Source: an uncultured Alphaproteobacteria bacterium
GTDB taxonomy: Bacteria; Pseudomonadota; Alphaproteobacteria; Acetobacterales; Acetobacteraceae
Direction: 5' to 3'
NCBI GenBank assembly: GCA_963819855.1
Contig: CAWFYC010000033.1
Span: 8,326-72,325, forward strand
Length of the DNA stretch: 64,000 nucleotides
In this document: positions 16,022 to 44,616 of the stretch, in pieces
How the letters are laid out: every line of letters begins with the position of its first letter
Position numbering within the stretch: position 1 is the first letter of the stretch
Notes under the pieces: model-generated
What the model was told of the DNA's origin: nothing
The model's input: only the letters and a program-made list of their open reading frames with translations
Database searches by the model: none
Program-made: the position numbers and the translations under genes

Positions 16022-16039
16022 GCGGTCGATATCACACCA
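16022..16039 (+). repeat. Right copy of 18-nt direct repeat gcggtcgatatcaYacca
   Basis: It matches 12066-12083 at 17 of 18 positions and overlaps the last codons and stop of the minus-strand DUF4157 gene. Confidence 0.6.
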
Positions 16040-19000
16040 GCGTCTCGAACGCGCCCTTCATCAGCGCTATGGGATCGAGGTGCGGCCGCTTCACATCGAT
16101 CTTCTCGACATTCAGGTCCAGCCCGCCCTTCTCCGACCACTGCAGCGGGATCGCGGCACTAAGCTGCATATCGGGGCCAAACTCGCCAAGTTTTTTCTCC
16201 CACGGGCCAAATTCATGATCGATGTCGAACAGGCCCAGATCGACCCCGACCGTGAACGAGGCGTTGACGCCAAGCTCGAACTTCGGTTGCGCACTGACCT
16301 TGGCGCAGCCGCCGACCGCGAAGCCATCGGCATTGTTCCAGCTCACCGCGACATCGAGCCTGGCCTCGGCCGCGATGCCCAGAGTGCCGTCCAGCCCGAC
16401 GCGTCCCTTGGCGTAGGCGACTGCGACCTGCGCCTTCAGCCCACCGCCCAGATCGAGGGTGAAACCGGCAAACGCCGGCACATGGAACTGCGCGGTGCCG
16501 ACAACCGTTGCCTCTTCCGGCCGATCGAGATCGATCGTCGCGTGCACCTTGGTGTTGCGCAGCATGCCCTTGCCGACACAGGCGTTGAACGAGACATCGG
16601 CATCGGCGAAAGCGAAGATGCCGACGCCAACCGGGCCGACCTTGACACCCCAGATCGGAAAATCAGGCGTCGCGAGATGCAGCAGCGACTTGTGGTAGGC
16701 GAGCTGCGGAAACAGCTCGAAGTCCGGCGGCAGTGCAACCTCGCCATCGAGAATGACGCGGCCGTCCGGTGTGTACTTGATGCCGGCAGTGCCTTGCAGG
16801 ATCTTGCCGAACCGGACGGTGGCCTGACCATCGCCCCAGATCTTCAGCGGACCGACCGGGCCACCCTCGATCGGATTGCCGGCTTCGTCCACGGCACGAT
16901 TGGTCGCGGTGACCTGTAGCCAGCCGCTGGCCGGTCCCTTCCGCACATCGGCTCGGCCCTTGAACAACACGCCCACGCCATCGACCATAATCTCGAGCGT
17001 GCCGCCCGCACCGGCGACGCCAAGCGTCGCCTTGCCGCCGCCGCTGATGCTCCAGACACCGGTCTCGGGGTTGCGCACCGCACGTACCGTCGCTGTGGCG
17101 CCCGACACGCCAGGCAGCTTGTCCACCGGCAGCGGCAGGTCCTTGCCCTCGAGCAACAGTCCGGTCTGCGGCGTATAGCCGGCCGTGATTGTGCCGCCCG
17201 CCAGCAGGCCGCCCAGTTGCAGCGATCCTGTCAGTCCGAAGCTGTCCCGGCTGACGGTGACCGAGACACTGCCGGATTCGACACCAGGCAGTGCGTTCTT
17301 CTTCACGTGGAATTCGCCGGAGCCGGTGAACGTATCGGTCGCAAGATCGTAGTTCACCTTGATCTGCGTCTGGTCGAGGAAGGCGAAATCGAGGTCGAAC
17401 ACGCCGCCGAGTGTGACGTTATCGTTCTCGCCGCGCGCGACGACGGTGCCTTTGCCCACCTTGTCGACGGCGATGTCGGCACTGCCCTGGACGAAGAAGC
17501 CGCTGGCGCCGACGCCGAGGTCGATGGCAGCCGCGGTGACGTGCAACGGGCCGAAGTTCAGTTTTTCGACGGGCAAGGGGAAGCGGAGCATGATATCGGT
17601 GCCCTGCAGCACGATCGGGATGCGCAGGCCCGGCAACAGCGCCTTCGACGACAGGACGTCGCCGGCGCCTTGCAACTCGCCATCCGGCGTGATTTCGATC
17701 CTGGAGAAGCTGATCGGACTCGCCGGACCGAAATCGCTCTCCTTGAACATGCCGGTGATGCTCTCGCGCGTCACGAAGCCGCCAAAGAACAGGTTCGGCG
17801 CGTGCATGACCGTGACAACATCATCAGCCTTGATCAGGTCCGTCTTCTTCGTTCCCGGGAACTTCTTCTTCTTGTATTCGACGTGCAGCTTGGTGATGAC
17901 GTTGTTCTGCTTGTCCGGTTTCGGTGGGTTGAACTCCTCGATCTTGAGGATATCGATGCCGCGGAAGAGATACCCGGGATTGACCAGCGACTTGCCGTCT
18001 GGCGTCAGCCTGAACCGCGTCGGTCTGCCGCCCTCCGGTGTCGGGAAGATGTTGATGTGGGTCGGTCTCGTGTGGCCGGTCTCGTCGAACTTGAAGCCCT
18101 GTTGGAACAGCTCCGGCTCGCTGAGCGCACGGTAGTACTTAAGATGCTTTCCGGTGCCGACATCAGCCCTGGTCCAGTAATCCTTCGGCCGGCCGCTGAA
18201 CGGGCCTTCGGCTACCGTGCCGAATTCGACCAGCCAATTTTCGCGGACCTCCGACACGCCGGCGGGCAGCCTGCCGTCGAGTTCGATCCCTTGATCCTTC
18301 TGAACCTTCTTCTCAGCCTGAGCCTTGGTCAGCACACTCTCAATCTGCTTGCCCCACTGATGCTCGATCTGTGTGCCGATCGATCGATTGTAGCTACGAT
18401 CGAGCAGCCACATGTTGTCGATCGTATTGCTCCCGCCGAGTTGGTCCTCCAGAACATGGTCGGCGTCCACTTCCATCTCGGCGCCGTTCTTTGCCACCAT
18501 CGGGCGTACGACACTGTCATTGCTGGCCAGTTGCGTCACATTGCCGACGATGAGGAATTCCGAACTGGTCGCCTTGAGATCGCCCGTGGTGCCTGCGCGG
18601 CGCATTACGTAGACGCTGTCAGACCCGGTGGTCGTCAGACTGGCGGCATTTTTTTGTCCGCCGATCTCGGCCTTGAGCAGCGGGGCAAGACCGGCGGAGT
18701 AGGTCTTGCGCACGTAGTCAACCCAGACGTCCCGTGCAGCCTCGAGGCCACGTTCCTTGCGCGAAGGCTGTGGCAGGCGCTGGTAAGGCTTGCCTTCCTC
18801 CGGCAGCGCGCCATGTGCCGCGGCAGCCGGTGCATCTGTTCCACCGGTGCCCTTGAGTGTCTTGCCGATGCGCGGCAGCAGTAGTTCAGGGACCTTGATG
18901 CGACCGCCCGCGCCCTTTGTCTGCGTCGTCAGATCGACTTCCCATTCCGGCTTGGCGCGTCCATCGGTCAACTGCTTGGTCTTTGCCGTCGGAGCGGCGG

Positions 19001-19763
19001 GCGGTGTCTGTGTCGGCACCGGCGTTTTGCCCTGCACGAGCCGGAGCTTGTTCACCTCGCACGGGTTCGCCGCGCGCATCGCACGGCAATCCTCGATCGT
19101 CTGTGCCACCGTGTCGCGGCGTGCCATCGCAATGCCTGCCGCGCGGTCGTGCTGCACGACATGCGTCGCCTCGTGCGCCATCAGGTGGGTATCGTGTTCG
19201 CTCTGACCCGGACCGAGCACGATATTGGAGCCGAGTGCATAGGCACGCGCGCCGAGCGCCGCGGCGGACGCGCCCGCCGTCGGTCCATCGTGAACCCGCA
19301 CATGATCGAGCGGCGCCCCCATGCGGGTTTCCAGTTTGCCACGCATGCCTGGCGCGATCGGCCGTCCGGGCTGGCTAAGTGTCGCATGCACCAACTCGGT
19401 CGGATCGTTCGCAGCCTGCGATGCCGCGTCGGCCGGCGCCCGCCGCAGCGCACCGGTATCGCGGACCTGGTGTGTTGCATCGGTGCAGCCGCTGCACGCG
19501 CGATGGATGGTATCCATCGGCGCGTTGGGATGCGGCGCGCCGGCGTCCAGCACCTGATGCGCGTCCTGGCCCGATGCCACCTTCGCGGCGACGCGTTCGG
19601 CGTGGTGTTCCTCGGGATCGTGCTCGCCACCGACCACGAGGCGGGCTCGCAGATAGCGGGGCACCGCGGGCGCCGCCGCCGCCGCGGGCTTCGGCATGTC
19701 CTTGGCCGGCGCGCGATTAAGTCGCGTCGCACCCGGCTTCACCGCGACCGCTGCCGCGTTCAT
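16032..19763 (-). CDS. eCIS-associated DUF4157 (HExxH) domain protein, 1243 aa, putative cargo/effector
   Basis: The N-terminal region (MGAPLDHVRVHDGPTAGASAAALGARAYALGSNIVLGPG...HLMAHEATHVVQ) is the DUF4157 signature. A central D-H...N...N motif (VDADHVLEDQLGGSNTIDNMWLLDRSYNRSIG) follows, and the C-terminal roughly 550 aa are Gly/beta-rich. The start overlaps the ATPase stop (ATGA). Confidence 0.8.
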   Translation of the reverse strand: MNAAAVAVKPGATRLNRAPAKDMPKPAAAAAPAVPRYLRARLVVGGEHDPEEHHAERVAAKVASGQDAHQVLDAGAPHPNAPMDTIHRACSGCTDATHQVRDTGALRRAPADAASQAANDPTELVHATLSQPGRPIAPGMRGKLETRMGAPLDHVRVHDGPTAGASAAALGARAYALGSNIVLGPGQSEHDTHLMAHEATHVVQHDRAAGIAMARRDTVAQTIEDCRAMRAANPCEVNKLRLVQGKTPVPTQTPPAAPTAKTKQLTDGRAKPEWEVDLTTQTKGAGGRIKVPELLLPRIGKTLKGTGGTDAPAAAAHGALPEEGKPYQRLPQPSRKERGLEAARDVWVDYVRKTYSAGLAPLLKAEIGGQKNAASLTTTGSDSVYVMRRAGTTGDLKATSSEFLIVGNVTQLASNDSVVRPMVAKNGAEMEVDADHVLEDQLGGSNTIDNMWLLDRSYNRSIGTQIEHQWGKQIESVLTKAQAEKKVQKDQGIELDGRLPAGVSEVRENWLVEFGTVAEGPFSGRPKDYWTRADVGTGKHLKYYRALSEPELFQQGFKFDETGHTRPTHINIFPTPEGGRPTRFRLTPDGKSLVNPGYLFRGIDILKIEEFNPPKPDKQNNVITKLHVEYKKKKFPGTKKTDLIKADDVVTVMHAPNLFFGGFVTRESITGMFKESDFGPASPISFSRIEITPDGELQGAGDVLSSKALLPGLRIPIVLQGTDIMLRFPLPVEKLNFGPLHVTAAAIDLGVGASGFFVQGSADIAVDKVGKGTVVARGENDNVTLGGVFDLDFAFLDQTQIKVNYDLATDTFTGSGEFHVKKNALPGVESGSVSVTVSRDSFGLTGSLQLGGLLAGGTITAGYTPQTGLLLEGKDLPLPVDKLPGVSGATATVRAVRNPETGVWSISGGGKATLGVAGAGGTLEIMVDGVGVLFKGRADVRKGPASGWLQVTATNRAVDEAGNPIEGGPVGPLKIWGDGQATVRFGKILQGTAGIKYTPDGRVILDGEVALPPDFELFPQLAYHKSLLHLATPDFPIWGVKVGPVGVGIFAFADADVSFNACVGKGMLRNTKVHATIDLDRPEEATVVGTAQFHVPAFAGFTLDLGGGLKAQVAVAYAKGRVGLDGTLGIAAEARLDVAVSWNNADGFAVGGCAKVSAQPKFELGVNASFTVGVDLGLFDIDHEFGPWEKKLGEFGPDMQLSAAIPLQWSEKGGLDLNVEKIDVKRPHLDPIALMKGAFETLV

Positions 19764-21700
19764 CCGTTTGCCGCGCGGGCCGGGACCAGCGCCAGATCGG
19801 GCGGCAGCCGGCGGCCAAGCTTGCGGTACTCGCGCGCCAGCGCTGCGGCCAGCGCGACCGCACCGATCGGCACACCGGCGGGCACTGTGGCGGCGGCCGA
19901 CAGCACGGCGTTGCGGATGCCGCCGCCGGCGAGATCGCAGTAGCTGGCCAGATGGTGCAGCACGTGCTCATCGGGCGCGCGCGTCCCGAGATGGCTTTGC
20001 CAAAGTCGCAGCCGCTCCTCGTAGCCTGGCAGCGGGAAGTCCATCACCACGTCGAGGCGCCGCCAGAACGCCGGATCGATCCGTGCCTTGTTGTTGGCGG
20101 TCAGGATGACGATGCCGTTGTGGTTCTCGATCCGCGTGAGCAGGAAATTGGTGAGCATGTTGGCGTAGCGTTCACCGGTCTCCGAGGCGTCGCTGCGCCG
20201 GCCAAACAGTGCGTCGGCCTCGTCGAACAGCAGCACGACGTCGGCCGCTTCGGCGTGATCCAGCAACTGGCCCAGGTTCTTCTCGGACTCGCCGATGTAC
20301 TTGTTCATCACCGCGCCAAGGTCGCAGCGGAACAGCGGCGCGCCAAGCGCGGTGGCGACGTAGCTGGCGGCGAGCGTCTTGCCGGTGCCGCTCTCGCCGG
20401 CGAAGAACGCGCGTACGCCACGCGTCGCGCCGCTCGCCAGCGACGGTCCGGTGCCGTGCCAGACCGTCTCGCGCTGCCGGCAACGCGAGATCAGCAATGT
20501 AAGATCGCGTTCCAGCGCTTCGGGCAGCACCAGCGCATCGCGCCCGACGCGGCGCGGCACCGGTTGTGCCAGCGTGCGCAACGCATCCGGCGCGAGGCGG
20601 CGGCGCGCCTCGGCCACATCGGCCGCAGTGACAGATGCTTCGCCGGCAAGGCCATGCGCGGCGCGTGCCACGCGTTCGATCCCACCTGGGAACAGTACCG
20701 CACCGGGCGCCAGCAGCGCGGCGAGATCGGCGTTCCCCAGCGTCTCGCACCATAGCCGCGTGCGCGTCGCCACATCGGGTGGTTCGAGCGTTGCGTCGAG
20801 CCATTGCTGGCCCTCGATTGCACCGTGCCCGCCAGCGAGCACGATGGCCGGAAGCGGCGCCCCATCGGGACGTGTCAGCGCGAGGCTTTCGCCTGCGCTG
20901 AGCGGCGCGCGCACCACAGGCAGCCAGCCAGCCGCGCGGCAGGCGGCCCCGAATGCAAGGTCGCCCTGGTAGGTCGCGGCCTGCGTTTCCAGCGGCACAC
21001 AGCCGAGACGCCTCGCGATTGCCGCAGCCAATGTGGCGCGTCCCGAACCGGGTGGCCCGCGCAGCACCAGCCCATCGGCACCTGATCCCGTCAGCAGCGC
21101 GGCGAGGCGCACTGCATCCGGCGTGTCCGCCGACGGTTCCAGTCGCCGGCCGCCAGGCCAGTCGGCCTCACCGCCGCGCAACGCGCGCCAGAGCTCTGGT
21201 CGCACCCGGAGCTGACGCTGCGGCAACAGGCCGCTGCCATCGGCGATCAGCAGACCGGTTGCGCACAATCGCCCGGCGACAAGATCGAGCGCATCGACGC
21301 CCGTCACCCCAAACAATTGCTGCCACAGGTCCAGCGCGAGGTGGATGCCGGGCCGCCCCGCCGGCTCCGGCGCCTGGAAAGCCGCGACCACCAGACCGAT
21401 CAGGTGGCTGCTCTCCGTGCCACCCGCGAGCCCGAGCAGGAACAGCTCATGCTGCCCGAGATGAAGCTGCGCGGTCAGCCTCGGAAATGGCCCGGCAGCG
21501 CGCTGCCAGGCGGCATCGAGCGCGGCGAGACGCTCAGACCAGGTGAGCGTTGCCAGCTCGGGCGCACGAGCCTGCGCGGTGCGGCGCAGCAGGCCGAATA
21601 CCGGCACGTCCTCGGTCGGAGCGACGAGGTTGGCGTACTCCAGCAGCCCCTGCTCGACCAGCAACTCCAGCAGCAGCGACGCAGGCGGCTCGCGCGGCAT
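19760..21700 (-). CDS. eCIS AAA+ ATPase (Afp15/Pvc15-like)
   Basis: The C-terminal AAA module has Walker A GESGTGKT, Walker B VVLLFDEADALF, sensor LTANN and RRLD. An upstream degenerate P-loop (GPPGSGRAT) is also present. The ATG shares one nucleotide with the upstream stop. Confidence 0.85.
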   Translation of the reverse strand: MPREPPASLLLELLVEQGLLEYANLVAPTEDVPVFGLLRRTAQARAPELATLTWSERLAALDAAWQRAAGPFPRLTAQLHLGQHELFLLGLAGGTESSHLIGLVVAAFQAPEPAGRPGIHLALDLWQQLFGVTGVDALDLVAGRLCATGLLIADGSGLLPQRQLRVRPELWRALRGGEADWPGGRRLEPSADTPDAVRLAALLTGSGADGLVLRGPPGSGRATLAAAIARRLGCVPLETQAATYQGDLAFGAACRAAGWLPVVRAPLSAGESLALTRPDGAPLPAIVLAGGHGAIEGQQWLDATLEPPDVATRTRLWCETLGNADLAALLAPGAVLFPGGIERVARAAHGLAGEASVTAADVAEARRRLAPDALRTLAQPVPRRVGRDALVLPEALERDLTLLISRCRQRETVWHGTGPSLASGATRGVRAFFAGESGTGKTLAASYVATALGAPLFRCDLGAVMNKYIGESEKNLGQLLDHAEAADVVLLFDEADALFGRRSDASETGERYANMLTNFLLTRIENHNGIVILTANNKARIDPAFWRRLDVVMDFPLPGYEERLRLWQSHLGTRAPDEHVLHHLASYCDLAGGGIRNAVLSAAATVPAGVPIGAVALAAALAREYRKLGRRLPPDLALVPARAANG

Positions 21701-23070
21701 CAGTGCAGCCGCGGATAGTGGAAGCGCACGACCCGCCCAAGCCACGGCACCCACGCAGGGTCGAGGTCGAGGCCGGCACGGCGGATACGGATGTCGATCG
21801 TGGTCGCGTGCAGGTCGAGATCGACATGGCTTGCCGTCACCCGCAGCAGGCCAGGCTGGCGCAGGAACCCGGGCCAGATCTCGCCGAATTCGTAGAGCTC
21901 CGCAGCCGTGGCGGCCAGCTCTGCGATAAATCCAGCCGCCGGCACCGGTTGTTCCATCTGTTCGGCGAGGAACGCCATCAGTTCGTCATCCTCCAGCGCG
22001 CCAGCCACGCGCGCCAAATCGTGCAGCACCTGCCAACCACTCGGCGGCTCGCCGTCCGACCATTCCAGTAATCGCTGCATCAGATCGAGCCGGTTGAGGG
22101 TATTGATCAGGAACAACACGCCGCCGAAATCGGTTGGAATTCCGCGCGCGAGTGATGGGTGGGGGGTCTGCGGCGGTTCAGTTGTGACTGGGCGCACTGT
22201 GTCCGCCGCTTTTCGTGATGCAGCTGATTTAGCTGCGCCAATCGTCATCCCCGCGAAAGCGGGGACCCAGGCGGCAACTGGGTCCCCGCTTGCGCGGGGA
22301 TGACGATTGGAGGCATCGCTCGCTGCGCCTACAGCAGCAGGCCGCCATGCCTGCGCGAGCGCCGCCAGTGCCGCTGCCGCGTTTGGCCCAGTGGCCAACG
22401 CGATCGGGTCCCAGCGCAACAATGACAGGACCGCGGCGGCGTGGACCGCGACACGCGGCGCGGCTGCCTGGCCAAGGGCCTCGCGCCAGAACCTCACCGC
22501 CGGTTGCAGCCGTATCGGCGGCGGCGGCACCTCGACGTCTTCGATTCTATCGGGCAGCGTCGCCCGTGTTGCCCAGCCGATCGCGCCGAGCAGTACGGCC
22601 GCCGCGTCCGGCGTGAGCTGGCGCCAGATCGGGACGAGCAACCCCTCGTCATGCCACTGGTCGAGCACCGCCCATGTCTCCAGGGGCCGTTCCGCCAGCA
22701 GGCCAATCGCCGCCGCCGCGCCGGACCACCGATTCAACACCCCAAGCCGGCGCCAGTACCAACGGGTCGCCGCGACACCGCCCAGCAGATCGCGCGCGAA
22801 GCTGCTGGCGACCGCGGTGAAATCCGGGAACACCACGACATCCGGATCGGCGCCCACCGTCGCCAGCCGGGCCAGCGCCCGCGCGAACTCCGGCGCTACC
22901 GATCCGCCGCGCGTCGCGATCGTCATCCGACGCACGAACACCCAGGGCCGTACCGACGGTGTCGGGCAGGCGGCAAGCTGCCCCCGGACCGACGCCGCGC
23001 TGCCTGGCCCACGCAGCGCCACCCGCCCGATCGCGACCATGTCGCCTGCCAGGACCGCGGGGATCGCCAT
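21700..23070 (-). CDS. Hypothetical eCIS protein in the tape-measure (Afp14) position, 456 aa
   Basis: The Ala/Leu/Pro-rich ORF lies directly upstream of the AAA+ ATPase and is translationally coupled at both ends. It contains the in-frame REP-like element. The functional call rests on position only. Confidence 0.4.
   Translation of the reverse strand: MAIPAVLAGDMVAIGRVALRGPGSAASVRGQLAACPTPSVRPWVFVRRMTIATRGGSVAPEFARALARLATVGADPDVVVFPDFTAVASSFARDLLGGVAATRWYWRRLGVLNRWSGAAAAIGLLAERPLETWAVLDQWHDEGLLVPIWRQLTPDAAAVLLGAIGWATRATLPDRIEDVEVPPPPIRLQPAVRFWREALGQAAAPRVAVHAAAVLSLLRWDPIALATGPNAAAALAALAQAWRPAAVGAASDASNRHPRASGDPVAAWVPAFAGMTIGAAKSAASRKAADTVRPVTTEPPQTPHPSLARGIPTDFGGVLFLINTLNRLDLMQRLLEWSDGEPPSGWQVLHDLARVAGALEDDELMAFLAEQMEQPVPAAGFIAELAATAAELYEFGEIWPGFLRQPGLLRVTASHVDLDLHATTIDIRIRRAGLDLDPAWVPWLGRVVRFHYPRLH
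22243..22306. repeat. REP-like compound palindrome inside a coding region
   Basis: cgtcatccccgcgaaagcggggacccag (22243-22270) pairs with ctgggtccccgcttgcgcggggatgacg (22279-22306). On the minus strand it is read through as ...[20 protein letters not shown]... Confidence 0.85.
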
Positions 23071-36718: not shown

Positions 36719-36727
36719 GTCCGGGAC

Positions 36728-37774: not shown

Positions 37775-37775
37775 C

Positions 37776-37934
37776 TCAGTCGACCTTCAGGCGCAGCCGT
37801 CGATCGGCTGCGGTCTGTGCATCGACCAGTTGGTCAGCGAGCGACGGCGGCCGAGGGGGCTGTACCTGCGTCGCCGATGGTTGTGCGGTTTGCGGCGCGG
37901 TCTCGATCAGCAGTTCATCGATCAGGATCGGCAT
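37776..37934 (-). CDS. Small 52-aa eCIS ORF, DUF5908/Afp6-like (below ORF-track cut-off)
   Basis: My manual translation is MPILIDELLIETAPQTAQPSATQVQPPRPPSLADQLVDAQTAADRRLRLKVD. It exactly fills the gap between two eCIS genes. The MPIxIxEL opening resembles my memory of Afp6/Pvc6-type proteins. Confidence 0.45.
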   Translation of the reverse strand: MPILIDELLIETAPQTAQPSATQVQPPRPPSLADQLVDAQTAADRRLRLKVD

Positions 37935-37939
37935 GGCGA

Positions 37940-38755: not shown

Positions 38756-38764
38756 CGCCCGCCC

Positions 38765-39217
38765 CTAGGTCGGTTCGCGTGAAACGTCTTCGAACACGAG
38801 CTGCACCTCTTCCACCGCGACCTGGCTGGCGGTTGCCGACAGATCGGGTGACTTGAACTTGATCGGCAGCACGTTGAGCAACTTCCAGGAAGCGACCACG
38901 TTCGGACCGCCATCCATCACGTCGATCTGACCTTGCAGGCGCACGCCGAAATTCTCGCGGCCGGCCACCAGATCGAGCCAGCGCCAGAGGTCGCTCGATG
39001 CGGTCATGCCGCGCTTCAGCGTGATGCTGCCGAACGCCACCGGGCCGACGCGCTGTGTGGCGCCGGTGTTGCGTCCGCCCTCGCGGATGGTGCGCGGCGT
39101 CATGGTAGCCTCGATGCCGGTGGCCTCGCTGAACAGGCCGCCGCACAGCGGGTCCGGCGACACATCGGCGCTGTAGAGATTGACCCGGTAGCGGAAGGCG
39201 ACGAACGCATCGCTCAT
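38765..39217 (-). CDS. Phage tail tube protein paralog 2 (Afp5-like)
   Basis: The product is 150 aa and carries FRYRVNLY...GLFSEATGIEATMTPRTIREGG...GSITLKRGMTASSDLWRWL, a pattern parallel to the tube protein at 40616-41068. Confidence 0.8.
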   Translation of the reverse strand: MSDAFVAFRYRVNLYSADVSPDPLCGGLFSEATGIEATMTPRTIREGGRNTGATQRVGPVAFGSITLKRGMTASSDLWRWLDLVAGRENFGVRLQGQIDVMDGGPNVVASWKLLNVLPIKFKSPDLSATASQVAVEEVQLVFEDVSREPT

Positions 39218-40611
39218 ATTGCCACCGCCTGGACGGTGGCGCCGTCCGTGGACTGCACGAAGCGCAGCCGGATGGTTTCGATCGCATAGGCGGGTGCGAA
39301 GCCGATCTCGTAGGCGATGCTGCCCTCCGGCGCCGGTGCCGGCTGAATCGACACCGCATCGGCCAATCGTCGCCCGCGCAGCGCGCCGCGCTGGAACAAC
39401 GTGGCGAAGAAGCCGTTGAGCGCCAAGCCGACGCGGCCGTCATCCGCGAGACCGATTTCGAACACCAACCGCTCGCCGAACTGCCGCAACTCGCGGATCA
39501 GCCAGCCGATGAACCGCTGCGTGCCAGCGGCGCGCGCCGACGGCGTGCGCGGCATCGCCAGCACTTCATCGTTCAGCACGATGCCGGTCGGATCGCGTTG
39601 CAGGGTGCCGATGCCCCGCACGGTCAATCCCGCGGCGACCTCCTCGCCGATCTGGCGCAGCGGTGCGCGGGTGCCGGGAAGCAACTGGCCACCGATCGAT
39701 CGCCACGGACCGGTGCGTTCCGCGGCGGCGGCGATCGCACCGGCCACCATGCCGGATGGCGTCAGCACCGCGCCGGTCTCGTCGTGCAGCAACGGTGCCA
39801 GCACTTGCAGGCCCGGGCGATCCAGCATGCTGTCGGGCGCGCCGTACAGCAGCCTGATCGCGGTGTCCGCCAGCAGGTGCGGACTGGCTGTCTGGTCGAG
39901 GCCGACGGGAAGGCTGAACAGGCACTGCATGTCCGGCCGCAGGCGTGCCAGGGTGCGGCAGATGCGTCCGAGCAGATCGGCGAGGAACACCACGGGCGCA
40001 CCCGCCGCGATGCCGCCCGCCGATCCGGGCACCGGTCGATCGGGTGGCGGCGCGCCAAGCGGACGGAACTCCGGTGCGATCGGGGGCGATGGCGGCGGCA
40101 ACGGCGTGACCACTTCAGGAACCGCGGCGATACGCTCCAGATCCGGCAGCACGACCAGGCCGACGGTTGGAATGGTTGCGGCTGCAATGATACCGCGCGT
40201 CGCGGCACCGAAGCCCGGGACCGGCGCATCGTACGGCACATAGGCGCTCAGATCGGCAGTGGCAGCGGTTCGGACGATCCAGGCGCGACGTCCGCCGGCC
40301 GCGAAGAAGTCGGCAACCGCCTGCGGCAGCCACATCGACTGACCGGGCAGCGGATCGGCCGAAGGAGGCACCGGCGTGGCGCCGAACAGGGCACGGAACG
40401 TGCCCCAGTCGTCGATCGGCACCGGTTGGTCGAAGCCGTCCGTGGTGGGCGCGAAGCCAAGCTCGCTCACCGCGCGCTGCGCCCGCGCATCGAGCTGTCC
40501 CGTCGGGCAGCAGCCGATGAACGCCACCTCGAGCACCGGTGACGCCGACGGCAACGGCAACGCGTCGGCGAGACTGACGCGGCGATCGGCGAGAGCGAGC
40601 ACCGTCACCAT
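39214..40611 (-). CDS. Divergent sheath-family paralog (465 aa)
   Basis: The C-terminal part (VRGIGTLQRDPTGIVLNDEVL...RFIGWLIRELRQFGERLVFE...FFATLFQRGALRG...IGFAPAYAIETIRLRF) parallels the sheath C-terminal domain layout, but the WGxRTL core is lost. The start is at the internal ATG 40611. Confidence 0.5.
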   Translation of the reverse strand: MVTVLALADRRVSLADALPLPSASPVLEVAFIGCCPTGQLDARAQRAVSELGFAPTTDGFDQPVPIDDWGTFRALFGATPVPPSADPLPGQSMWLPQAVADFFAAGGRRAWIVRTAATADLSAYVPYDAPVPGFGAATRGIIAAATIPTVGLVVLPDLERIAAVPEVVTPLPPPSPPIAPEFRPLGAPPPDRPVPGSAGGIAAGAPVVFLADLLGRICRTLARLRPDMQCLFSLPVGLDQTASPHLLADTAIRLLYGAPDSMLDRPGLQVLAPLLHDETGAVLTPSGMVAGAIAAAAERTGPWRSIGGQLLPGTRAPLRQIGEEVAAGLTVRGIGTLQRDPTGIVLNDEVLAMPRTPSARAAGTQRFIGWLIRELRQFGERLVFEIGLADDGRVGLALNGFFATLFQRGALRGRRLADAVSIQPAPAPEGSIAYEIGFAPAYAIETIRLRFVQSTDGATVQAVAI

Positions 40612-40615
40612 CCAC

Positions 40616-41068
40616 CTATTCGTACTCGATCTTTTCCACCGACAGCACCAGTTCCTCCATCGCCACATCGCCGCCGCCCTTGGCGGTAAGCGTGGGGCCG
40701 GTCCATTTCAGCGGCATCGCGCCGCGCAGCCGCCAGGTGGCGACCGGGTTCCGGCCTTCGTCCAGCAGCGTGACAGTGACCTCGCGCTTGAAGTCCTGCG
40801 TGTCGCGCTCGCGAAGCTGTTCGATCCACTGCCAGATATCGTCGGAAGCCATCAGCCCGCGCTTCAGCGTGACGTCGCCCGTCTTGTAGACGCCGGGCAG
40901 CTTGCGCGTGTGGTTCTCCATGTCGTTGCCGGTGCGGTACTCGGCCACCGTGATCTCGGTGTTGAGGCCGCTGACCTCGCTGAAACCGGCTCGCGGCTCG
41001 CGTCCCTGGCCGGGCAGCAACTCCACCAGGAAGTTGAAGGCGGAGTACGGGGTCTGACGAAACTGCAT
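40616..41068 (-). CDS. Phage tail tube protein paralog 1 (T4 gp19 / Afp1-like)
   Basis: The product is 150 aa and carries FNFLVELLPG...GFSEVSGLNTEITVAEYRTGND...KLPGVYKTGDVTLKRGLMASDDIWQWI, the canonical contractile-tail tube pattern. Confidence 0.85.
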   Translation of the reverse strand: MQFRQTPYSAFNFLVELLPGQGREPRAGFSEVSGLNTEITVAEYRTGNDMENHTRKLPGVYKTGDVTLKRGLMASDDIWQWIEQLRERDTQDFKREVTVTLLDEGRNPVATWRLRGAMPLKWTGPTLTAKGGGDVAMEELVLSVEKIEYE

Positions 41069-41093
41069 GTTCCGCTCGCTCCTTGTTGCGCGT

Positions 41094-43241
41094 CTAGCTG
41101 CTGGCGGTGATCTGGCCGATGCGGAAGATGACGAATTCGGCGGGGCGCAACGGCGCGACGCCGATCAGGCACACCAGCCTGCCGTTGTCGAGATCGTTCT
41201 GCGTCATCGTGGTACGATCGCAGCGCACGAAATACGCCGATTCCGGCTTCGAGCCGAGCAGATGTCCGTTGCGCCATTCCGAGTAGAGGAAGTCCGACAC
41301 CGTGGCTTGCACGTTCGCCCACAGCGCCTCGCCGTTTGGTTCGAACACCACCCAGCTGGTCGAATCGTCGATCGAGTGTTCCAGGAACATGAAGTAGCGC
41401 CGCACATTCACGTAACGCCAGTCCGGATCGTCGGACAGCGTGCGTCCGCCCCACACGCGGTAGCCGCGATTGGCGAAGAAGCGCAGGCAGTTGATGCCAA
41501 GCGGGTTCAGCACCTCCTGCTGAAATGTGTTGACATACAGTTCGAGCCCTGTGGCGCCCTGGATCACTTCGTTCGCCGGCGCCTTGTGCACGCCGCGCTG
41601 TACGTCGGTATCGGCATAAAGTCCGGCCATGAAGCCGCTTGGCGGCAGAATCACGTCGCCGACGCCGTCCGGCGATGCCGCCTTCACCCACGGGTAGTAT
41701 AGCGCCAGGCGTGTGTCCGAGAGCTGTGCGCGGAACGCCTGCACATCGGCGACCGACGAGCCCGGACCCGCTTCGATGATTCCGATGCGATAGCGCATCT
41801 TGGTGCAGTGCTGCTGCATCGCGATGACCGTGCCGAGATGCGCGGCGGGGTCGGCGGCGGCGGCAGGGCAGACCACCATGGATATTTCGTCGATGTCCTC
41901 GAGTGCGGCGAGTCCATAGCTGCCGAGCTGATCGTTCATCTCGCCGATATAGTCGGCGACGATCGGCGAGCTGCCGTCGCTGCCGCCGGTCAGATGGATC
42001 ACCAGTTGCGGCGTCGCGGCGGGATTGGCCGGTGCGAGCAGCGCGGGATCGAACGCATTGACCAGCGCTGCCCAGACATCACTCGCGCTATGCACCGGTG
42101 CGCCATAGCTTACCGCGATCGGCTGGGTGAGTTGGTCCGAGGAACGTACCGGATGCGTCGGCAACACGGTGCCGAGACTGACCGGCGCGTTGATCTCCAG
42201 CGACACGCCCTGAACACTGTAGATCAGCGTGCCGTTGCGCTGCACGCTGATGTCGAAGGCGTCGTGGAACAGCGGTCCGGCAGCACCTGGACCAGGTGCC
42301 AGGTCGGCCCCCGCCAGCGCGAGCGGCAATTGCGTGTCGACGGCGACGGATGCGTTCAGCGCGTGCGGAAAGGTGAGCGTGCTGCCGTCGGTGCTCGCCG
42401 TTGCATAGAAGGTGGCCAGTGTGCTGGTTGCTCCCAGATATTGCGCCAGTGCCGGCCCGCCGGGAATGCTGTAGAGCGGCGCGTTGCCCAGGCCCGCCGT
42501 GTTGAGCGCTGCCTTGCGCGCACCATCGCGCACGTTTTGATCCGAGGTGATGGACGCCGCGAAGTTGGGGACATCGACCAGGTGGGCGTTACCGGTGCTA
42601 TCGACAAAGAAGATTCGCTGGCCGGTCTCGAACACGTAGCGGTCGGGATTGCTGGCGTCGGCCGGCACATGCTGTGCCAGCGCCACGAGTTTTTGTAGCG
42701 GGAATAGCGCATCGGCAAGGCCGGCGACGGGCGTGTTGAGCTGCGCCTTGCGCACCTGCGACAGTCGCAGCAGCACGACGTCGGCATCGGAGGATGAGGC
42801 CGACAGCGACAGCAGGCTGGCGCTGCGACGCGGCGCGAACACCACGTCGAGATTGCCGCCGGTGCCGGGGAAGCGCGCCTGGAACAGCACGCTGGCGGCG
42901 GTACCCTGCTGCAGGACACGCGGCGCGGTTGCGGTCGCGGCGGCGGCATCGGGGCGTGCGACGCGGCCGACGTAGATCATCTGTCCGCCGTTGTCGAAGA
43001 ACGCGCGGACCGACAGTGCGGTATAATTCGGTGCGCTGGTGCCACCCAGGGACAGGTTCGCCAGGTCGCCGAAATTGTTCTGGTAGTCGGCCAGGCTGGT
43101 GCACAGCACCGGCCTGCCACGCACCTGGCCGAACCGTGTTGGCCCGACGATGGCGGCAACCGACGTACTGGCACCTTCAATCGTCTTCTGTCGAAAGCTG
43201 GTCTCCTCGACATAGACGCCCGGTGCGAGATATTCCGGCAT
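41094..43241 (-). CDS. Contractile tail sheath protein (715 aa)
   Basis: The N-terminus is MPEYLAPGVYVEETSFRQKTIEGASTSVAAIVGPT. The C-terminus (GINCLRFFANRGYRVWGGRTLSDDPDWRYVNVRRYFMFLEHSI...FEPN) matches the sheath pattern. GGTGGAGA lies upstream of the ATG. Confidence 0.9.
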   Translation of the reverse strand: MPEYLAPGVYVEETSFRQKTIEGASTSVAAIVGPTRFGQVRGRPVLCTSLADYQNNFGDLANLSLGGTSAPNYTALSVRAFFDNGGQMIYVGRVARPDAAAATATAPRVLQQGTAASVLFQARFPGTGGNLDVVFAPRRSASLLSLSASSSDADVVLLRLSQVRKAQLNTPVAGLADALFPLQKLVALAQHVPADASNPDRYVFETGQRIFFVDSTGNAHLVDVPNFAASITSDQNVRDGARKAALNTAGLGNAPLYSIPGGPALAQYLGATSTLATFYATASTDGSTLTFPHALNASVAVDTQLPLALAGADLAPGPGAAGPLFHDAFDISVQRNGTLIYSVQGVSLEINAPVSLGTVLPTHPVRSSDQLTQPIAVSYGAPVHSASDVWAALVNAFDPALLAPANPAATPQLVIHLTGGSDGSSPIVADYIGEMNDQLGSYGLAALEDIDEISMVVCPAAAADPAAHLGTVIAMQQHCTKMRYRIGIIEAGPGSSVADVQAFRAQLSDTRLALYYPWVKAASPDGVGDVILPPSGFMAGLYADTDVQRGVHKAPANEVIQGATGLELYVNTFQQEVLNPLGINCLRFFANRGYRVWGGRTLSDDPDWRYVNVRRYFMFLEHSIDDSTSWVVFEPNGEALWANVQATVSDFLYSEWRNGHLLGSKPESAYFVRCDRTTMTQNDLDNGRLVCLIGVAPLRPAEFVIFRIGQITASS

Positions 43242-43264
43242 GGCGTGTCTCCACCTCGATGAGG

Positions 43265-44023
43265 TTATGCTTCCAGAGTCGCGAACGGTACGCTGGGATC
43301 CGTTGCAGTCAGGATCTGACCGCGCGTGAAGGGGATGGTGACCGAATCGGTGAATCCGCCGGTTGCGCCGAGCCGCAGCTTGCGCGCGGCCAACGCGTCG
43401 GGATCGGTGATCGGTGTCGGTTGCGGGTGCGTCGCCGGGGTGACGACGGTCATCGTCAACTGGTCCGTCGCACTGGACGCAGGCGGTGGTGGCAGTCCGC
43501 GCATCGCCACCAGCAGATCGCCCTGTTGGTTCGCCTGGCCGGAGAAGGTGAAGGTCTTGCCGGTCCGCATACAGGTGAGCGTGGCGATCGCCCAGGCCGC
43601 GGCCGCACCGTCGGCATAGAGCAGTCTGACCGCGAGGCCGCCGGCCTCGTCGAAGCGCGTCGTGACCGTGCTGCGATACAGCGGCACGTAGGCGATCCGA
43701 TCGGCGTTCAGCGGCACCGAGAAGAGTCGAGGATGAAACCGACCGTCGCGCGACGTTACCTGCCCGCTCACTGTGATCGGTGCGCTGAACGGCGGCGTCG
43801 TGAGTTCGTCCGGCGTCGGCATATGGTCATAGAAGATCGGCTCCATGAGCAGCACGATGCCGCGTGGATCGGCGCGCCAGGTGATCTTGTCCGGCAGCGC
43901 GCCAGTAACGCGCGCATCCAACAGCGGCGGCGGGCCGCCGATCGCGCGCCGGCCCGGCGGGCCGAACAGCAGCGCCTCGGCCCAGAACACCGCGCCGGCA
44001 GCGGGGAAGCGATTGGCTTCCAC
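43265..44023 (-). CDS. Hypothetical eCIS protein (252 aa)
   Basis: The GTG start lies 2 nt after the DUF4255 stop and the gene is co-directional. I recognise no motif. Confidence 0.5.
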   Translation of the reverse strand: MEANRFPAAGAVFWAEALLFGPPGRRAIGGPPPLLDARVTGALPDKITWRADPRGIVLLMEPIFYDHMPTPDELTTPPFSAPITVSGQVTSRDGRFHPRLFSVPLNADRIAYVPLYRSTVTTRFDEAGGLAVRLLYADGAAAAWAIATLTCMRTGKTFTFSGQANQQGDLLVAMRGLPPPPASSATDQLTMTVVTPATHPQPTPITDPDALAARKLRLGATGGFTDSVTIPFTRGQILTATDPSVPFATLEA

Positions 44024-44025
44024 GC

Positions 44026-44616
44026 TCAGGGCACGCCCTCCCGATAACCGAACGTCCGATCAAGCACCGGGGCATAGACATGCTGCGCCACGTCGGCCCG
44101 CACGCGCACGGCGCGCGCTATATAAGGTACCGACATCGAATACTTCATCGGCAGCACGTCCCAGATGCGGTACAGCTCCTCGGGCTTCATGTCCTCGGTG
44201 GCAAGTTGCACGCTATCGGCCTCGTCCCACTCGTACGATGGATCGCTCAACCGGTCCGCGCCGATCACCGGTCTGCTGGCAAGGCGCTGCATCGCGAAAC
44301 CCATCAGACTGATTTCGGCGAGCGGCGTGTCGGCGACGCCGATCAGCAGAAAATGCAGCATCAGCGGCACTTCCGGTACCGGCGGCGTACGGCTGCCGGG
44401 CAATTGGCGAATGAATCCACCCGGGATCGATGGATCGATGGCAATGCGATGCAGGTAGACGCCGACGATGTTGCCGAGCGATTTCTTGAAGTCCTGGCTG
44501 CCGATGAGCTGCGCGTTGCCGTTGATCGGGCTGTTACTGAGATCTGCCGGGAATTCCTCCTTCAGCAGGCTCTCGATCGCCAGCATGACGCCGTAGACAG
44601 CGCTGTAGCTCGCCAC
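44026..44616 (-). CDS. DUF4255 (Pvc16/Afp16 N-domain) tail terminator/cap-like protein
   Basis: The product is 196 aa. The VGVYLHRIAID and C-terminal EELYRIWDVLPMKYSMSVPYIARAVRV segments follow the DUF4255 pattern. The GTG start is preceded by GGGAGAG. Confidence 0.7.
   Translation of the reverse strand: MASYSAVYGVMLAIESLLKEEFPADLSNSPINGNAQLIGSQDFKKSLGNIVGVYLHRIAIDPSIPGGFIRQLPGSRTPPVPEVPLMLHFLLIGVADTPLAEISLMGFAMQRLASRPVIGADRLSDPSYEWDEADSVQLATEDMKPEELYRIWDVLPMKYSMSVPYIARAVRVRADVAQHVYAPVLDRTFGYREGVP

What the first reader, a model, noticed from the sequence alone, without database searches (positions are those of the whole stretch)
16032..44616. 28.6-kb phage-tail-like / extracellular contractile injection system (eCIS) operon with non-canonical architecture
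Twenty co-directional minus-strand genes are packed with start/stop overlaps (ATGA, or a shared single nucleotide) at most junctions. They encode recognisable sheath, tube (two copies), gpD-like hub, gpV-like spike, gp25, baseplate J and gpI-like proteins. They also encode the three markers that separate eCIS from prophage tails and tailocins: a DUF4255 cap protein, a dedicated AAA+ ATPase and a DUF4157 protein. No capsid, portal, terminase, integrase or lysis gene is present in the 64-kb window. The cluster departs from the Afp/PVC paradigm in five ways. The spike is split into gpD-like and gpV-like genes. I see no PAAR-like gene and no LysM domain. A 530-aa membrane-anchored protein sits between spike and gp25. 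The fibre position holds three paralogs of an unrecognised family. Finally, the cap gene is first rather than last. The cluster lies between housekeeping-type transport genes and a decayed tkt gene, which suggests an accessory locus.
Basis: partly seen in the sequence, partly recalled or inferred. Interest (0 to 1): 0.85.

Follow-up and report, generated by a model that had tools for sequence, protein, structure and literature searches.

The report
Lineage-II contractile injection system operon
This is a real 20-gene phage-tail-like injection machine, but its "odd" layout is the standard layout of a widespread, already catalogued and still unstudied subtype, whose main open question is a conserved membrane-anchored protein of unknown fold next to the spike.

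Summary
Twenty tightly packed minus-strand genes (16032-44616) encode a contractile injection system (CIS). Profile searches recover the cap (Pvc16_N/DUF4255), two sheath-family proteins, two gp19-type tube proteins, Cis7, a weak Afp6-like ORF, a split gpD/gpV spike, gp25, Baseplate_J, a Tail_P2_I/CIS12-like protein, an AAA+ ATPase and a DUF4157 protein. No phage head, integrase or lysis family was found among about 30 flank ORFs scanned.

The "non-canonical architecture" claim does not hold. The same gene order appears in 78 of 79 fetched loci, out of 231 places in species-representative genomes of Alpha-, Beta- and Gammaproteobacteria and Desulfobulbales. The split spike, missing PAAR, Afp6-like gene, single Baseplate_J gene and absent Afp14 together match dbeCIS subtype IIb as described by Chen et al. 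2019.

Three details need correcting:
- The three "fibre" genes share only an N-terminal domain related to CIS13.
- Gene 5 is a second sheath paralog.
- Gene 7 keeps a degenerate LysM remnant.

What remains open is the 530-aa protein in the PAAR position. It is conserved across the subtype and has a C-terminal membrane helix in every member. Its confident model matches no known fold. It could be a membrane adaptor, as in other lineage-II systems, or a spike-tip protein.

Verdict: a new member of a known kind, of moderate interest.

The parts
44026..44616 (-). g1: Cis16/Afp16-type tube cap (terminator), 196 aa, first gene of the operon
   Evidence: Pfam Pvc16_N (DUF4255) 8.8e-21, covering 4-178 of 180 profile positions. 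It is first in the order in the 60 related loci that reach this far.
43265..44023 (-). g2: conserved 252-aa protein of unknown function, between cap and sheath
   Evidence: No Pfam, NCBIfam or PHROG hit. A profile of homologs gave no hit against PDB sequences. tblastn homologs lie at the same position in 33 loci.
41094..43241 (-). g3: main sheath protein (Cis2), 715 aa
   Evidence: Pfam Phage_sheath_1 4e-19 and Phage_sheath_1C 2.8e-13. The closest solved sheaths are 8bky and 8bl4 (8.5e-103 and 2.5e-100). I take these to be the Streptomyces CIS from my own knowledge of the entries.
40616..41068 (-). g4: tube protein (Cis1), 150 aa
   Evidence: Pfam Phage_T4_gp19 2.9e-37.
39214..40611 (-). g5: second sheath-family paralog (Cis3/4-like), 465 aa
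   Evidence: No Pfam hit alone. A profile of 15 homologs hits All3325 in the Anabaena CIS baseplate entry 7b5h (2e-16), Pvc4 (7e-16), Pvc3, Afp3 and Pvc2. The Roseateles homolog carries a weak Phage_sheath_1C hit.
38765..39217 (-). g6: second tube-fold protein (Cis5/Cis1b-like), 150 aa
   Evidence: Pfam Phage_T4_gp19 3.5e-26. It is 31.5% identical to g4 (3.5e-21).
37940..38755 (-). g7: Cis7-type tube initiator with a degenerate LysM remnant and a Ser/Ala-rich tail, 271 aa
   Evidence: Pfam CIS_tube 3e-25. PDB sequence hits are the LysM-domain proteins 9gtp_P (1.8e-7) and 7aeb_M, plus Afp7 and Pvc7. The alignment to 9gtp_P runs into its LysM region. The Roseateles homolog has a weak Pfam LysM hit.
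37776..37934 (-). g7b: 52-aa Afp6/Pvc6-like ORF
   Evidence: Weak Pfam DUF5908 hit, E 0.021, positions 1-38 of 55. tblastn homologs occur in L001, L002, L003 and L008. A 52-aa or 56-aa gene is called at the same place in L083 and L084.
36728..37774 (-). g8: gpD/gp27-like baseplate hub (first half of a split Cis8), 348 aa
   Evidence: Pfam Phage_GPD 1.4e-7, partial.
36065..36718 (-). g9: gpV/gp5-like spike (second half of a split Cis8), 217 aa
   Evidence: Pfam Phage_base_V 1.1e-16, plus a weak beta-helical trimerisation hit.
34479..36071 (-). g10: subtype-specific 530-aa protein with a conserved C-terminal hydrophobic helix (tail-anchor type), in the position where other subtypes have PAAR
   Evidence: Its start overlaps the g9 stop by 7 nt. 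No Pfam, NCBIfam, PHROG or PDB-sequence hit. The family has 111 clusters and 231 genomic places. It lies between g9 and g11 in 75 of 76 loci. The hydrophobic segment is present in 74 of 74 members, 4-16 residues from the C-terminus, and is the most conserved stretch (0.74 against 0.53). The AF2 model has pLDDT 84 and no Foldseek match in PDB or BFVD.
34087..34482 (-). g11: gp25-like sheath-initiating wedge protein (Cis9), 131 aa
   Evidence: Pfam GPW_gp25 1.9e-20.
31921..34083 (-). g12: Baseplate J / gp6-like wedge protein (Cis11), single copy, 720 aa
   Evidence: Pfam Baseplate_J 6.2e-8.
29423..31912 (-). g13: Tail_P2_I / CIS12-like wedge and fibre-adaptor protein, 829 aa
   Evidence: Pfam Tail_P2_I 6.2e-8. 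NCBIfam CIS12_fam 6.4e-24 over the C-terminal part, below the family cut-off, and TIGR02242 1.3e-13.
28489..29409 (-). g14: short CIS13-like baseplate-periphery protein, 306 aa
   Evidence: NCBIfam CIS13_fam 1e-13 on residues 25-112, far below the family cut-off. BLASTP to g16 gives 1.2e-4. The AF2 model has pLDDT 78.9, and its three best Foldseek PDB hits are chains of the Anabaena CIS baseplate 7b5h (E 7e-3 to 8e-2, weak).
26681..28462 (-). g15: CIS13-like protein with a C-terminal coiled-coil-like region, 593 aa
   Evidence: NCBIfam CIS13_fam 3.9e-4 on residues 32-97, and a weak SMC-type hit at 449-563. BLASTP to g16 gives 7.8e-6.
23070..26684 (-). g16: large protein (1204 aa) sharing the CIS13-like N-terminal domain
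   Evidence: BLASTP N-terminal similarity to g14 and g15. No Pfam or PDB-sequence hit. Homologs lie at the same position in 58 loci.
21700..23070 (-). g17: conserved 456-aa unknown protein, in the position Afp14 holds in Afp (between fibre genes and ATPase)
   Evidence: No Pfam, NCBIfam or PHROG hit. The family has 40 clusters, all labelled hypothetical. PDB profile hits are compositional only. The position is conserved in L080, L081 and L082.
19760..21700 (-). g18: AAA+ ATPase (Cis15), 646 aa
   Evidence: Pfam AAA 6.5e-31 at residues 451-575 of the 664-aa GTG-start ORF that was scanned, about 433-557 in the 646-aa protein. A weak N-terminal P-loop hit is also present.
16032..19763 (-). g19: 1243-aa DUF4157 protein, the candidate cargo or effector. 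It has an N-terminal HExxH domain, a central HNH-like motif and a large Gly-rich C-terminal region.
   Evidence: Pfam eCIS_core 2e-20 at residues 136-208. Residues 210-1243 match 671 cluster representatives. All 32 sampled members carry eCIS_core. H436, N450 and N459 are invariant, and 3 of 32 members reach Pfam HNH. The region after DUF4157 is replaced in L082.

Best explanation
The region is a complete operon for a lineage-II contractile injection system. Its trait set is that described for dbeCIS subtype IIb. The host is probably an Acetobacteraceae-related alphaproteobacterium.

Inferred working, from homology to solved CIS particles:
- A baseplate forms around a split gp27-like/gp5-like spike (g8, g9). 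It contains Cis7 (g7), gp25 (g11), Baseplate J (g12) and a Tail_P2_I/CIS12-like wedge protein (g13). The wedge protein carries up to three CIS13-like peripheral proteins (g14-g16).
- Tube proteins (g6, then g4) polymerise from the baseplate.
- Two sheath-family proteins (g5, g3) wrap the tube, and the Cis16 cap (g1) closes it.
- The AAA+ ATPase (g18) assists assembly or cargo loading.
- The DUF4157 protein with an HNH-like motif (g19) is the likeliest cargo.
- Sheath contraction drives the tube and spike through a membrane.

Shown here: the family membership of the parts, their order, and the conservation of that order across at least 79 loci.

Inferred: stoichiometry, cargo identity and target.

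Not resolved: whether the particle is released (a true eCIS) or fires while attached to the producer's cytoplasmic membrane. The subtype-specific tail-anchored protein g10 has replaced PAAR next to the spike gene. It is my candidate for a membrane adaptor, by analogy with CisA in subtype IId and Hbor_38620 in IIa.
For: - All core families were recovered by Pfam and NCBIfam.
- g5 is sheath-family and g7 is a Cis7 homolog, by search against solved CIS components.
- The sheath is closest to PDB sheaths 8bky and 8bl4 (8.5e-103), well ahead of Pvc2 and Afp. I take those two entries to be the Streptomyces CIS.
- Gene order g1-g16 is collinear in 78 of 79 loci from four proteobacterial classes and Desulfobulbales.
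- Genes g13-g19 are conserved in L080-L082. The whole layout recurs even around a g10 relative that is 24% identical.
- The trait combination (no PAAR, split Afp8, Afp6-like gene present, single Afp11, no Afp14, extra subtype-specific genes) is singled out as IIb by Chen et al. 2019.
[quoted passage not shown] They were found in the CIS-dependent secretome of a haloarchaeon.
- For g10: the conserved C-terminal hydrophobic helix and the precedents for subtype-specific membrane adaptors in lineage II.
Against: - Subtype IIb is assigned from published trait descriptions, not by placing sequences in the dbeCIS tree. The supplementary locus lists were not available.
- The Afp6-like assignment rests on a weak hit (E 0.021).
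- No experiment on any member of this architecture was found in the paper library, so the mode of action is extrapolated.
- g10's hydrophobic helix is unusually conserved in sequence. That could mean a buried protein-protein contact inside the particle rather than a lipid anchor.
- The g19 region after DUF4157 is a large conserved family rather than a variable toxin module. It might be structural or a processing enzyme rather than cargo.
Confidence: 0.85

Rival explanations
1. It is a true extracellular CIS, and g10 is a new spike-tip or payload protein that substitutes for PAAR. It would ride on the gp5-like spike, with its hydrophobic C-terminal helix shielded in the particle. After firing, the helix would insert into the target membrane.
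For: - g10 sits exactly where PAAR genes would be expected. Its start overlaps the spike gene's stop by 7 nt, which suggests coupled translation.
- PAAR is absent from every gene product and from the subtype.
- The hydrophobic helix has strong sequence conservation, more than a plain lipid anchor usually needs.
- Three CIS13-like genes lie downstream of Tail_P2_I. This fits the polyvalent-fibre eCIS model of the 2026 receptor-binding-domain catalogue.
Against: - The confident model shows no PAAR-like or other spike-binding fold.
- At 530 aa, a globular protein is large for a tip.
- From my own knowledge of the solved structures, no released CIS particle solved so far contains an integral-membrane-type helix.
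- No complex prediction could be run.
Confidence: 0.3
2. It is a cytoplasmic, self-directed CIS like that of Streptomyces. It would fire inside the producer under stress and cause regulated cell death, not injection into other cells.
For: - The sheath's closest solved relatives are 8bky and 8bl4, which I take to be the cytoplasmic Streptomyces CIS.
- That system needs a cluster-encoded membrane protein, CisA, to fire.
- No lysis genes were found in the window.
Against: - The Streptomyces cluster lacks fibre-like genes, whereas this one has three CIS13-like genes and a Tail_P2_I adaptor.
- The hosts here are unicellular diderms with no developmental cycle.
- g10 is unrelated to CisA in topology and sequence.
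Confidence: 0.1
3. It is a defective prophage tail module or an R-type tailocin.
For: The sheath, tube, gp25, J, I, gpD and gpV families are shared with P2- and T4-like tails.
Against: - Cis16/DUF4255, a dedicated AAA+ ATPase and a DUF4157 protein are all present.
- No head, portal, terminase, integrase, holin or endolysin family was found in the flanks, and there is no tRNA gene.
- The unknown genes have no PHROG relatives.
- The 20-gene layout is conserved across phyla without phage genes alongside.
Confidence: 0.03

Closest known systems
dbeCIS lineage II, subtype IIb (Chen et al. 2019, Cell Rep 29:511; PMC6899500)
   Same: - Afp8 is split into gp27-like and gp5-like ORFs.
- There is no Afp10/PAAR.
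- An Afp6-like small gene is present.
- Afp11 (Baseplate J) is single-copy.
- Divergent Afp12 and Afp13 are present.
- There is no Afp14 homolog.
- There are 2-3 conserved genes of unknown function (here g2, g10, g17).
   Different: I could show no difference. Membership is inferred from traits, not from a tree. The paper gives no names or functions for the subtype-specific genes.
Streptomyces coelicolor CIS (subtype IId; PDB 8bky, 8bl4, 9gtp; CisA paper PMC12237407)
   Same: - It has the closest solved sheath (8.5e-103) and the closest Cis7 (1.8e-7).
- It shares the Cis16 cap, Cis9, Cis11 and Cis12.
- It has a cluster-encoded single-pass membrane protein that is needed for firing.
   Different: - In Streptomyces the spike is a single ORF (subtype IId). 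From my own knowledge, its cluster also includes a PAAR-like gene.
- It has no fibre-like genes.
- CisA has a cytoplasmic disordered N-terminus and a periplasmic domain, and is encoded after the baseplate genes. g10 is tail-anchored, has a large folded cytoplasmic part, and lies between the spike and gp25 genes.
Afp / PVC (subtype Ia eCIS; PDB 6rao, 6j0n)
   Same: The part list is the same: tube x2, several sheath paralogs, Afp6, Afp7, spike, gp25, J-like wedge, ATPase and cap. The candidate payload gene lies at the 3' end.
   Different: - In Afp/PVC the cap gene comes last, the spike is fused and PAAR is present.
- They have an adenovirus-like fibre, an Afp14 tape measure and a clear LysM domain.
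- They have no membrane-helix protein.
Haloarchaeal T6SS-like CIS (subtype IIa; PMC11566945) and the Anabaena thylakoid-anchored CIS (PDB 7b5h)
   Same: - These are eCIS-like clusters that act while anchored to a membrane.
- In the haloarchaeal clusters, a conserved cluster-linked membrane protein correlates with that mode.
- DUF4157 proteins are secreted cargo.
- g5 and g14 find their best solved matches in 7b5h chains.
   Different: - The haloarchaeal anchor Hbor_38620 has six membrane helices and lies outside the core operon.
- IIa has two Cis11 copies and a PAAR.
- There is no sequence relation to g10.

Membership tests
eCIS-type contractile injection system (Afp/PVC superfamily) | Phage-type sheath and gp19-type tube genes | tested here: met
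   Phage_sheath_1 plus sheath_1C, and Phage_T4_gp19 twice. g5 is sheath-family by profile.
eCIS-type contractile injection system (Afp/PVC superfamily) | Baseplate core: gp25, Baseplate J, spike (gp27/gp5) and a Cis7 tube initiator | tested here: met
   GPW_gp25, Baseplate_J, Phage_GPD, Phage_base_V and CIS_tube. g7 matches Afp7, Pvc7 and the Cis7 proteins of solved CIS particles.
eCIS-type contractile injection system (Afp/PVC superfamily) | Cis16/Afp16 cap (DUF4255) and a dedicated AAA+ ATPase (Cis15), which tailocins and phage tails lack | tested here: met
   Pvc16_N 8.8e-21 and AAA 6.5e-31.
eCIS-type contractile injection system (Afp/PVC superfamily) | DUF4157/eCIS_core protein in the operon | tested here: met
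   eCIS_core 2e-20 in g19, with an HExxH motif visible.
eCIS-type contractile injection system (Afp/PVC superfamily) | No head, packaging, integration or lysis genes linked to the cluster | tested here: met
   About 30 flank ORFs across the 64-kb window gave no such family. The same holds in L080, L082, L083 and L084. DNA beyond the window was not seen.
eCIS-type contractile injection system (Afp/PVC superfamily) | Particles are released and act extracellularly | not testable with these tools
   This needs microscopy or activity assays. Characterised lineage-II systems are cell-bound or cytoplasmic.
dbeCIS subtype IIb | Afp10/PAAR absent (the only subtype lacking it) | tested here: met
   No PAAR family in any product. 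There is no room for another gene, since all junctions are 26 nt or less. g9, g10 and g11 are adjacent in 75 of 76 loci.
dbeCIS subtype IIb | Afp8 split into gp27-like and gp5-like ORFs | tested here: met
   g8 carries Phage_GPD and g9 carries Phage_base_V, as separate ORFs 9 nt apart.
dbeCIS subtype IIb | Afp6 homolog present (the only lineage-II subtype with it) | tested here: inconclusive
   The 52-aa ORF gives DUF5908 at E 0.021, below the cut-off. Its position is conserved, and the gene is called in relatives.
dbeCIS subtype IIb | Single Afp11 copy; divergent Afp12 and Afp13 present; no Afp14 | tested here: met
   There is one Baseplate_J gene. CIS12_fam and CIS13_fam give partial hits. 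No tape-measure family hit any product.
dbeCIS subtype IIb | Placement in the IIb clade of the concatenated core-protein tree | not tested
   Reference sequences and supplementary tables were not available.
Canonical T6SS (types i-iii) | TssB/TssC two-part sheath, TssJLM membrane complex, TssK/F/G baseplate and ClpV | tested here: not met
   None of these families was hit. The sheath is a single phage-type chain, and a Cis16 cap is present.
R-type tailocin / P2-like prophage tail | Lysis cassette and regulators flanking a tail module; no Cis15, Cis16 or DUF4157 | tested here: not met
   Cis15, Cis16 and DUF4157 are all present, and no lysis family was found.

The most novel reading that the evidence does not exclude
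Systems of this architecture may not be 'extracellular' at all. The conserved tail-anchored protein g10 has an unknown fold and is encoded in the PAAR position next to the spike gene. It may tether the spike or baseplate to the producer's cytoplasmic membrane. This widespread proteobacterial subtype would then fire from the cell like a T6SS, using an anchoring solution unrelated to TssJLM, CisA or the haloarchaeal six-helix anchor.
Probability: 0.3. Interest if true: 0.7.

Novelty: new member of a known kind. Interest (0 to 1): 0.4.

Why it matters
As one locus it adds little. It is one more member of a subtype present in at least 231 places in species-representative genomes.

Its value is as a pointer. 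I found no member of this architecture that has been purified, imaged or tested. It also carries three conserved genes with no annotation:
- g2 has no family or structural match.
- g17 has no family or structural match.
- g10 is a tail-anchored protein whose confident model matches no known fold. It replaces PAAR next to the spike.

Each lineage-II system studied so far turned out not to be a classical released eCIS, and each depends on, or correlates with, its own membrane protein. Resolving g10 would show how this subtype meets a membrane, and whether it is a secretion system or a released particle.

The 1243-aa DUF4157 protein with an invariant HNH-like motif belongs to a family of more than 600 clusters. 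It is a candidate for the still unknown role of DUF4157 proteins.

Tried and rejected
- **Prophage or tailocin reading.** Rejected on the marker genes and the absence of phage modules.
- **g10 as a PAAR-like, tape-measure or other known CIS part.**
  - Pfam, NCBIfam, PHROGs and a 74-sequence profile against PDB sequences gave nothing.
  - Foldseek of a pLDDT-84 model against PDB and BFVD gave no match (best E 0.18, TM below 0.1).
  - A tape-measure role looks unlikely, because the model is globular rather than an extended helix. It is not excluded.
- **g2 and g17 against solved CIS components by profile.** Only compositional hits, to the amyloid precursor E2 domain, or nothing.
- **g16 and g19 against PDB sequences.** No hits.
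- **First attempt to fetch loci with the 22-sequence alignment.** It failed because no conserved stretch was found. A 12-sequence alignment worked.
- **Direct confirmation of subtype IIb from Chen et al.'s supplementary tables.** No files are held.
- **Literature search for characterised members in the host genera.** Nothing relevant.
- **Promoter and terminator scans at the operon ends.** No more hits than in shuffled sequence.
- **Upstream ORFs u1 and u2 (45234-46713, minus strand) as cluster members.** They have no family hits and no tblastn hits in the fetched loci. However, those loci reach only about 1-2 kb upstream of g1, so this stays open.

Full report

Yes. On the minus strand, 19 long ORFs and one 52-aa ORF form an unbroken chain from 44616 to 16032. 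With the most plausible start codons, no junction exceeds 26 nt.
- Seven of the 19 junctions overlap. g5/g6, g10/g11, g15/g16 and g18/g19 overlap by 4 nt (ATGA), g9/g10 by 7 nt, and g16/g17 and g17/g18 by a single shared base.
- The other twelve junctions are gaps of 1-26 nt.
- "Overlaps at most junctions" is therefore an overstatement, but the tight operon-like packing is correct.

**2. Surroundings**

The left flank encodes a luciferase-like monooxygenase, peptide ABC-transporter components, a dimethylformamidase-like protein, and P450 and haem-peroxidase ORFs.

The right flank encodes the following:
- a transketolase remnant, a HAD hydrolase and a transaldolase;
- a DUF2126 / ATP-grasp / transglutaminase cluster;
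- an MlrC-like peptidase and a chemoreceptor.

The ORFs without Pfam hits also have no PHROG relatives, and there is no tRNA gene.

The tkt remnant is genuine. Two blastn pieces lie about 1.7 kb apart in intact tkt genes but within 0.66 kb here.

I found no head, portal, terminase, integrase or lysis family. The closest relative of the locus is an Acetobacteraceae metagenome-assembled genome, with gene products 73-91% identical.

**3.

- **g5 (39214-40611)** has no Pfam hit on its own. A profile of 15 homologs matches sheath-family chains of solved CIS particles: All3325 in the Anabaena CIS baseplate entry 7b5h (2e-16), Pvc4, Pvc3, Afp3 and Pvc2. It is a second sheath paralog.
- **g7 (CIS_tube)** is a Cis7 homolog. 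Its best PDB sequence hit is the "LysM domain-containing protein" 9gtp_P (1.8e-7), followed by 7aeb_M, Afp7 and Pvc7. The alignment to 9gtp_P continues into its LysM region, pairing "...LDPGTWRAQAMLNGLETPRF" with "...SANAWRVIAEANGIDDPSH". So a degenerate LysM remnant is present.
- **The 52-aa ORF (37776-37934)** gives a weak DUF5908 (Afp6/Pvc6) hit (E 0.021). A gene is called at the same place in relatives.
- **g13** matches NCBIfam CIS12_fam (6.4e-24, partial).
- **g14 and g15** match the N-terminus of NCBIfam CIS13_fam (1e-13 and 3.9e-4), far below the family cut-off.
- **g14, g15 and g16** resemble one another only over about 100 N-terminal residues.
- **A model of g14** (pLDDT 78.9) finds its three best PDB matches in chains of the Anabaena CIS baseplate. 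The scores are weak (E 7e-3 to 8e-2).

This pattern fits the 2026 catalogue of eCIS fibre proteins. That catalogue describes shoulder-like anchor domains (eBAP3-5) encoded downstream of Tail_P2_I adaptors, with up to four "fibres" per baseplate.

**4. Is the architecture unusual?**

It is unusual compared with Afp/PVC, but not within the superfamily.

Using the 530-aa protein g10 as a probe, I found 111 protein clusters. I also found 231 places in species-representative genomes. tblastn of all window proteins against the 79 fetched loci gave these results:
- All hits are on one strand.
- The order is collinear in 78 of 79 loci. The exception is a paralog cross-hit on a truncated contig.
- g9, g10 and g11 are adjacent in 75 of 76 loci.
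- The hosts span Acetobacteraceae, Hyphomicrobiales, Sphingomonadales, Burkholderiaceae, Azoarcus, Chromatiaceae, Methylomonas, Thalassolituus, Hahella, Cellvibrio, Marinobacter and Desulfobulbales.

The distal half of the operon is conserved in three further loci. It reads Tail_P2_I, a protein of about 305 aa, one of about 590 aa, one of about 1200 aa, one of about 460 aa, the AAA ATPase, then the eCIS_core protein.

A Roseateles locus, found through a g10 relative only 24% identical, has the same layout. There the g5 homolog shows a weak sheath_1C hit and the g7 homolog a weak LysM hit.

Chen et al. 2019 state the following:
- Afp10/PAAR is absent only from subtype IIb.
- Afp6 is retained in lineage II only by IIb.
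- Afp8 is split in IIa, IIb and IIc.
- Afp11 is single-copy in Ia, Ib, IIb and IId.
- IIa and IIb keep divergent Afp12 and Afp13.
- Afp14 is generally missing from lineage II.
- Each lineage-II subtype has 2-3 conserved genes of unknown function.

That combination singles out IIb and matches this locus point for point.

The sheath is also much closer to PDB sheaths 8bky and 8bl4 (8.5e-103) than to Pvc2 or Afp (about 1e-50). I take those two entries to be the Streptomyces subtype-IId CIS.

Geller et al. 2021 already list an eCIS locus of about 30.7 kb in Thalassolituus oleivorans. I did not check that its architecture is the same.

I could not place the sequences in the dbeCIS tree, so the IIb label is an inference from traits.

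**5. What remains unexplained**

g2 (252 aa), g10 (530 aa) and g17 (456 aa) have no hit in Pfam, NCBIfam or PHROGs. Profiles of each also gave no meaningful hit against PDB sequences.

g10 is the most striking of the three.
- It lies in the position where other subtypes have PAAR, and its start overlaps the stop of the spike gene.
- It has no N-terminal signal sequence.
- Its C-terminal hydrophobic helix (about 487-522) is the only strong membrane-type segment in the operon.
- That segment is present in all 74 aligned family members, ends 4-16 residues before the C-terminus, and is the most conserved part of the protein (0.74 against 0.53 overall).
- The AlphaFold model is confident (pLDDT 84). 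It shows a globular alpha/beta body, a flexible linker and a terminal helix.
- Foldseek finds nothing comparable in PDB or BFVD.

Other lineage-II systems offer precedents:
- The Streptomyces subtype-IId CIS needs the single-pass membrane protein CisA to fire.
- In haloarchaeal subtype-IIa clusters, a conserved six-helix membrane protein correlates with a membrane-anchored, T6SS-like mode.

By analogy, g10 may be this subtype's membrane adaptor. The strong sequence conservation of the helix and the gene's coupling to the spike gene also allow a different reading. In that reading g10 is a spike-tip or payload protein, and its helix is buried in the particle until firing. I could not test either reading further, because no complex prediction was available.

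**6. The candidate cargo**

g19 has the DUF4157 HExxH domain at residues 136-208.
- Residues 210-1243 match 671 cluster representatives in an exhaustive search, 325 of them at 1e-30 or better.
- All 32 sampled relatives carry eCIS_core.
- H436, N450 and N459 are invariant within the motif "DVDHxxELQLGG...N.WLL...AN.S.G". Three of the 32 relatives reach the Pfam HNH model.
- In one related locus the region after DUF4157 is replaced by unrelated sequence.

I therefore treat g19 as the likeliest cargo, possibly a nuclease. The large, conserved, Gly-rich C-terminal region has no assigned role.

**7. Verdict**

The claim that its architecture is non-canonical does not survive comparison. It is the standard, widely distributed architecture of a subtype catalogued in 2019, and some of the listed oddities are detection-threshold effects.

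The locus is a new member of a known kind. The residual interest lies in the subtype as a whole. I found no experimentally studied representative, and the conserved membrane-helix protein of unknown fold beside the spike may decide how these machines meet a membrane.

Noticed in passing
window 47688-48382 (+): This is a transketolase remnant. The ORF carries fragments of both the N-terminal and C-terminal tkt domains. blastn matches intact tkt genes in two pieces about 1.7 kb apart in the subject but within 0.66 kb here. That implies a 5' truncation plus an internal deletion. An intact HAD hydrolase and transaldolase follow.
   Followed up: partly
window 44617-46151, and L083:1-1532: The roughly 1.5 kb upstream of the cap gene has lower G+C (about 0.62). 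It lies within a 2.15-kb stretch that is 80% identical to the same position in a relative whose proteins are about 86% identical. It holds minus-strand ORFs (45234-46067 and 46036-46713) with no Pfam or PHROG hit. It could hold a regulator, a leader or more cluster genes.
   Followed up: partly
window 16032-19763 (-), residues about 430-465 of g19: The DUF4157 protein has an HNH-like motif, 'DADHVLEDQLGGSNTIDNMWLLDRSYNRSIG'. H436, N450 and N459 are invariant across 32 sampled relatives of a family with 671 clusters. The window protein itself does not reach the Pfam HNH model.
   Followed up: yes
window 16001-18000: The 3' half of g19 has lower G+C (0.633) than the structural genes (about 0.70). 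The region after the DUF4157 domain is unrelated in locus L082. Both points suggest the distal part of this gene is exchanged more often than the rest of the operon.
   Followed up: partly
window 13089-15985 (+): [quoted passage not shown] One has a cytochrome P450 C-terminal match and the other an animal-haem-peroxidase match. They may be a frameshifted or fused oxygenase gene.
   Followed up: no
L027, L029, L033, L039, L041, L062 (Methylomonas loci): Six Methylomonas loci carry this architecture. A supplementary table of Geller et al. 2021 lists 0 of 16 Methylomonas genomes with an eCIS. Either these are later genomes, or earlier screens under-detected this subtype.
   Followed up: no
L083:2936-5053: In the closest long-contig relative, the sheath gene is called as two ORFs (235 and 261 aa) with a gap, instead of one 715-aa gene. 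The Baseplate J gene there is also split. These are probably assembly or frameshift errors in that metagenome assembly, or decay of the gene.
   Followed up: no
window 50707-58313 (+): This is a four-gene cluster: transglutaminase-like/DUF2126, circularly permuted ATP-grasp plus Alpha-E, one gene I did not scan (about 56.5-57.0 kb), and a second transglutaminase-like gene. It looks like a conserved operon of unknown role and is unrelated to the finding.
   Followed up: no
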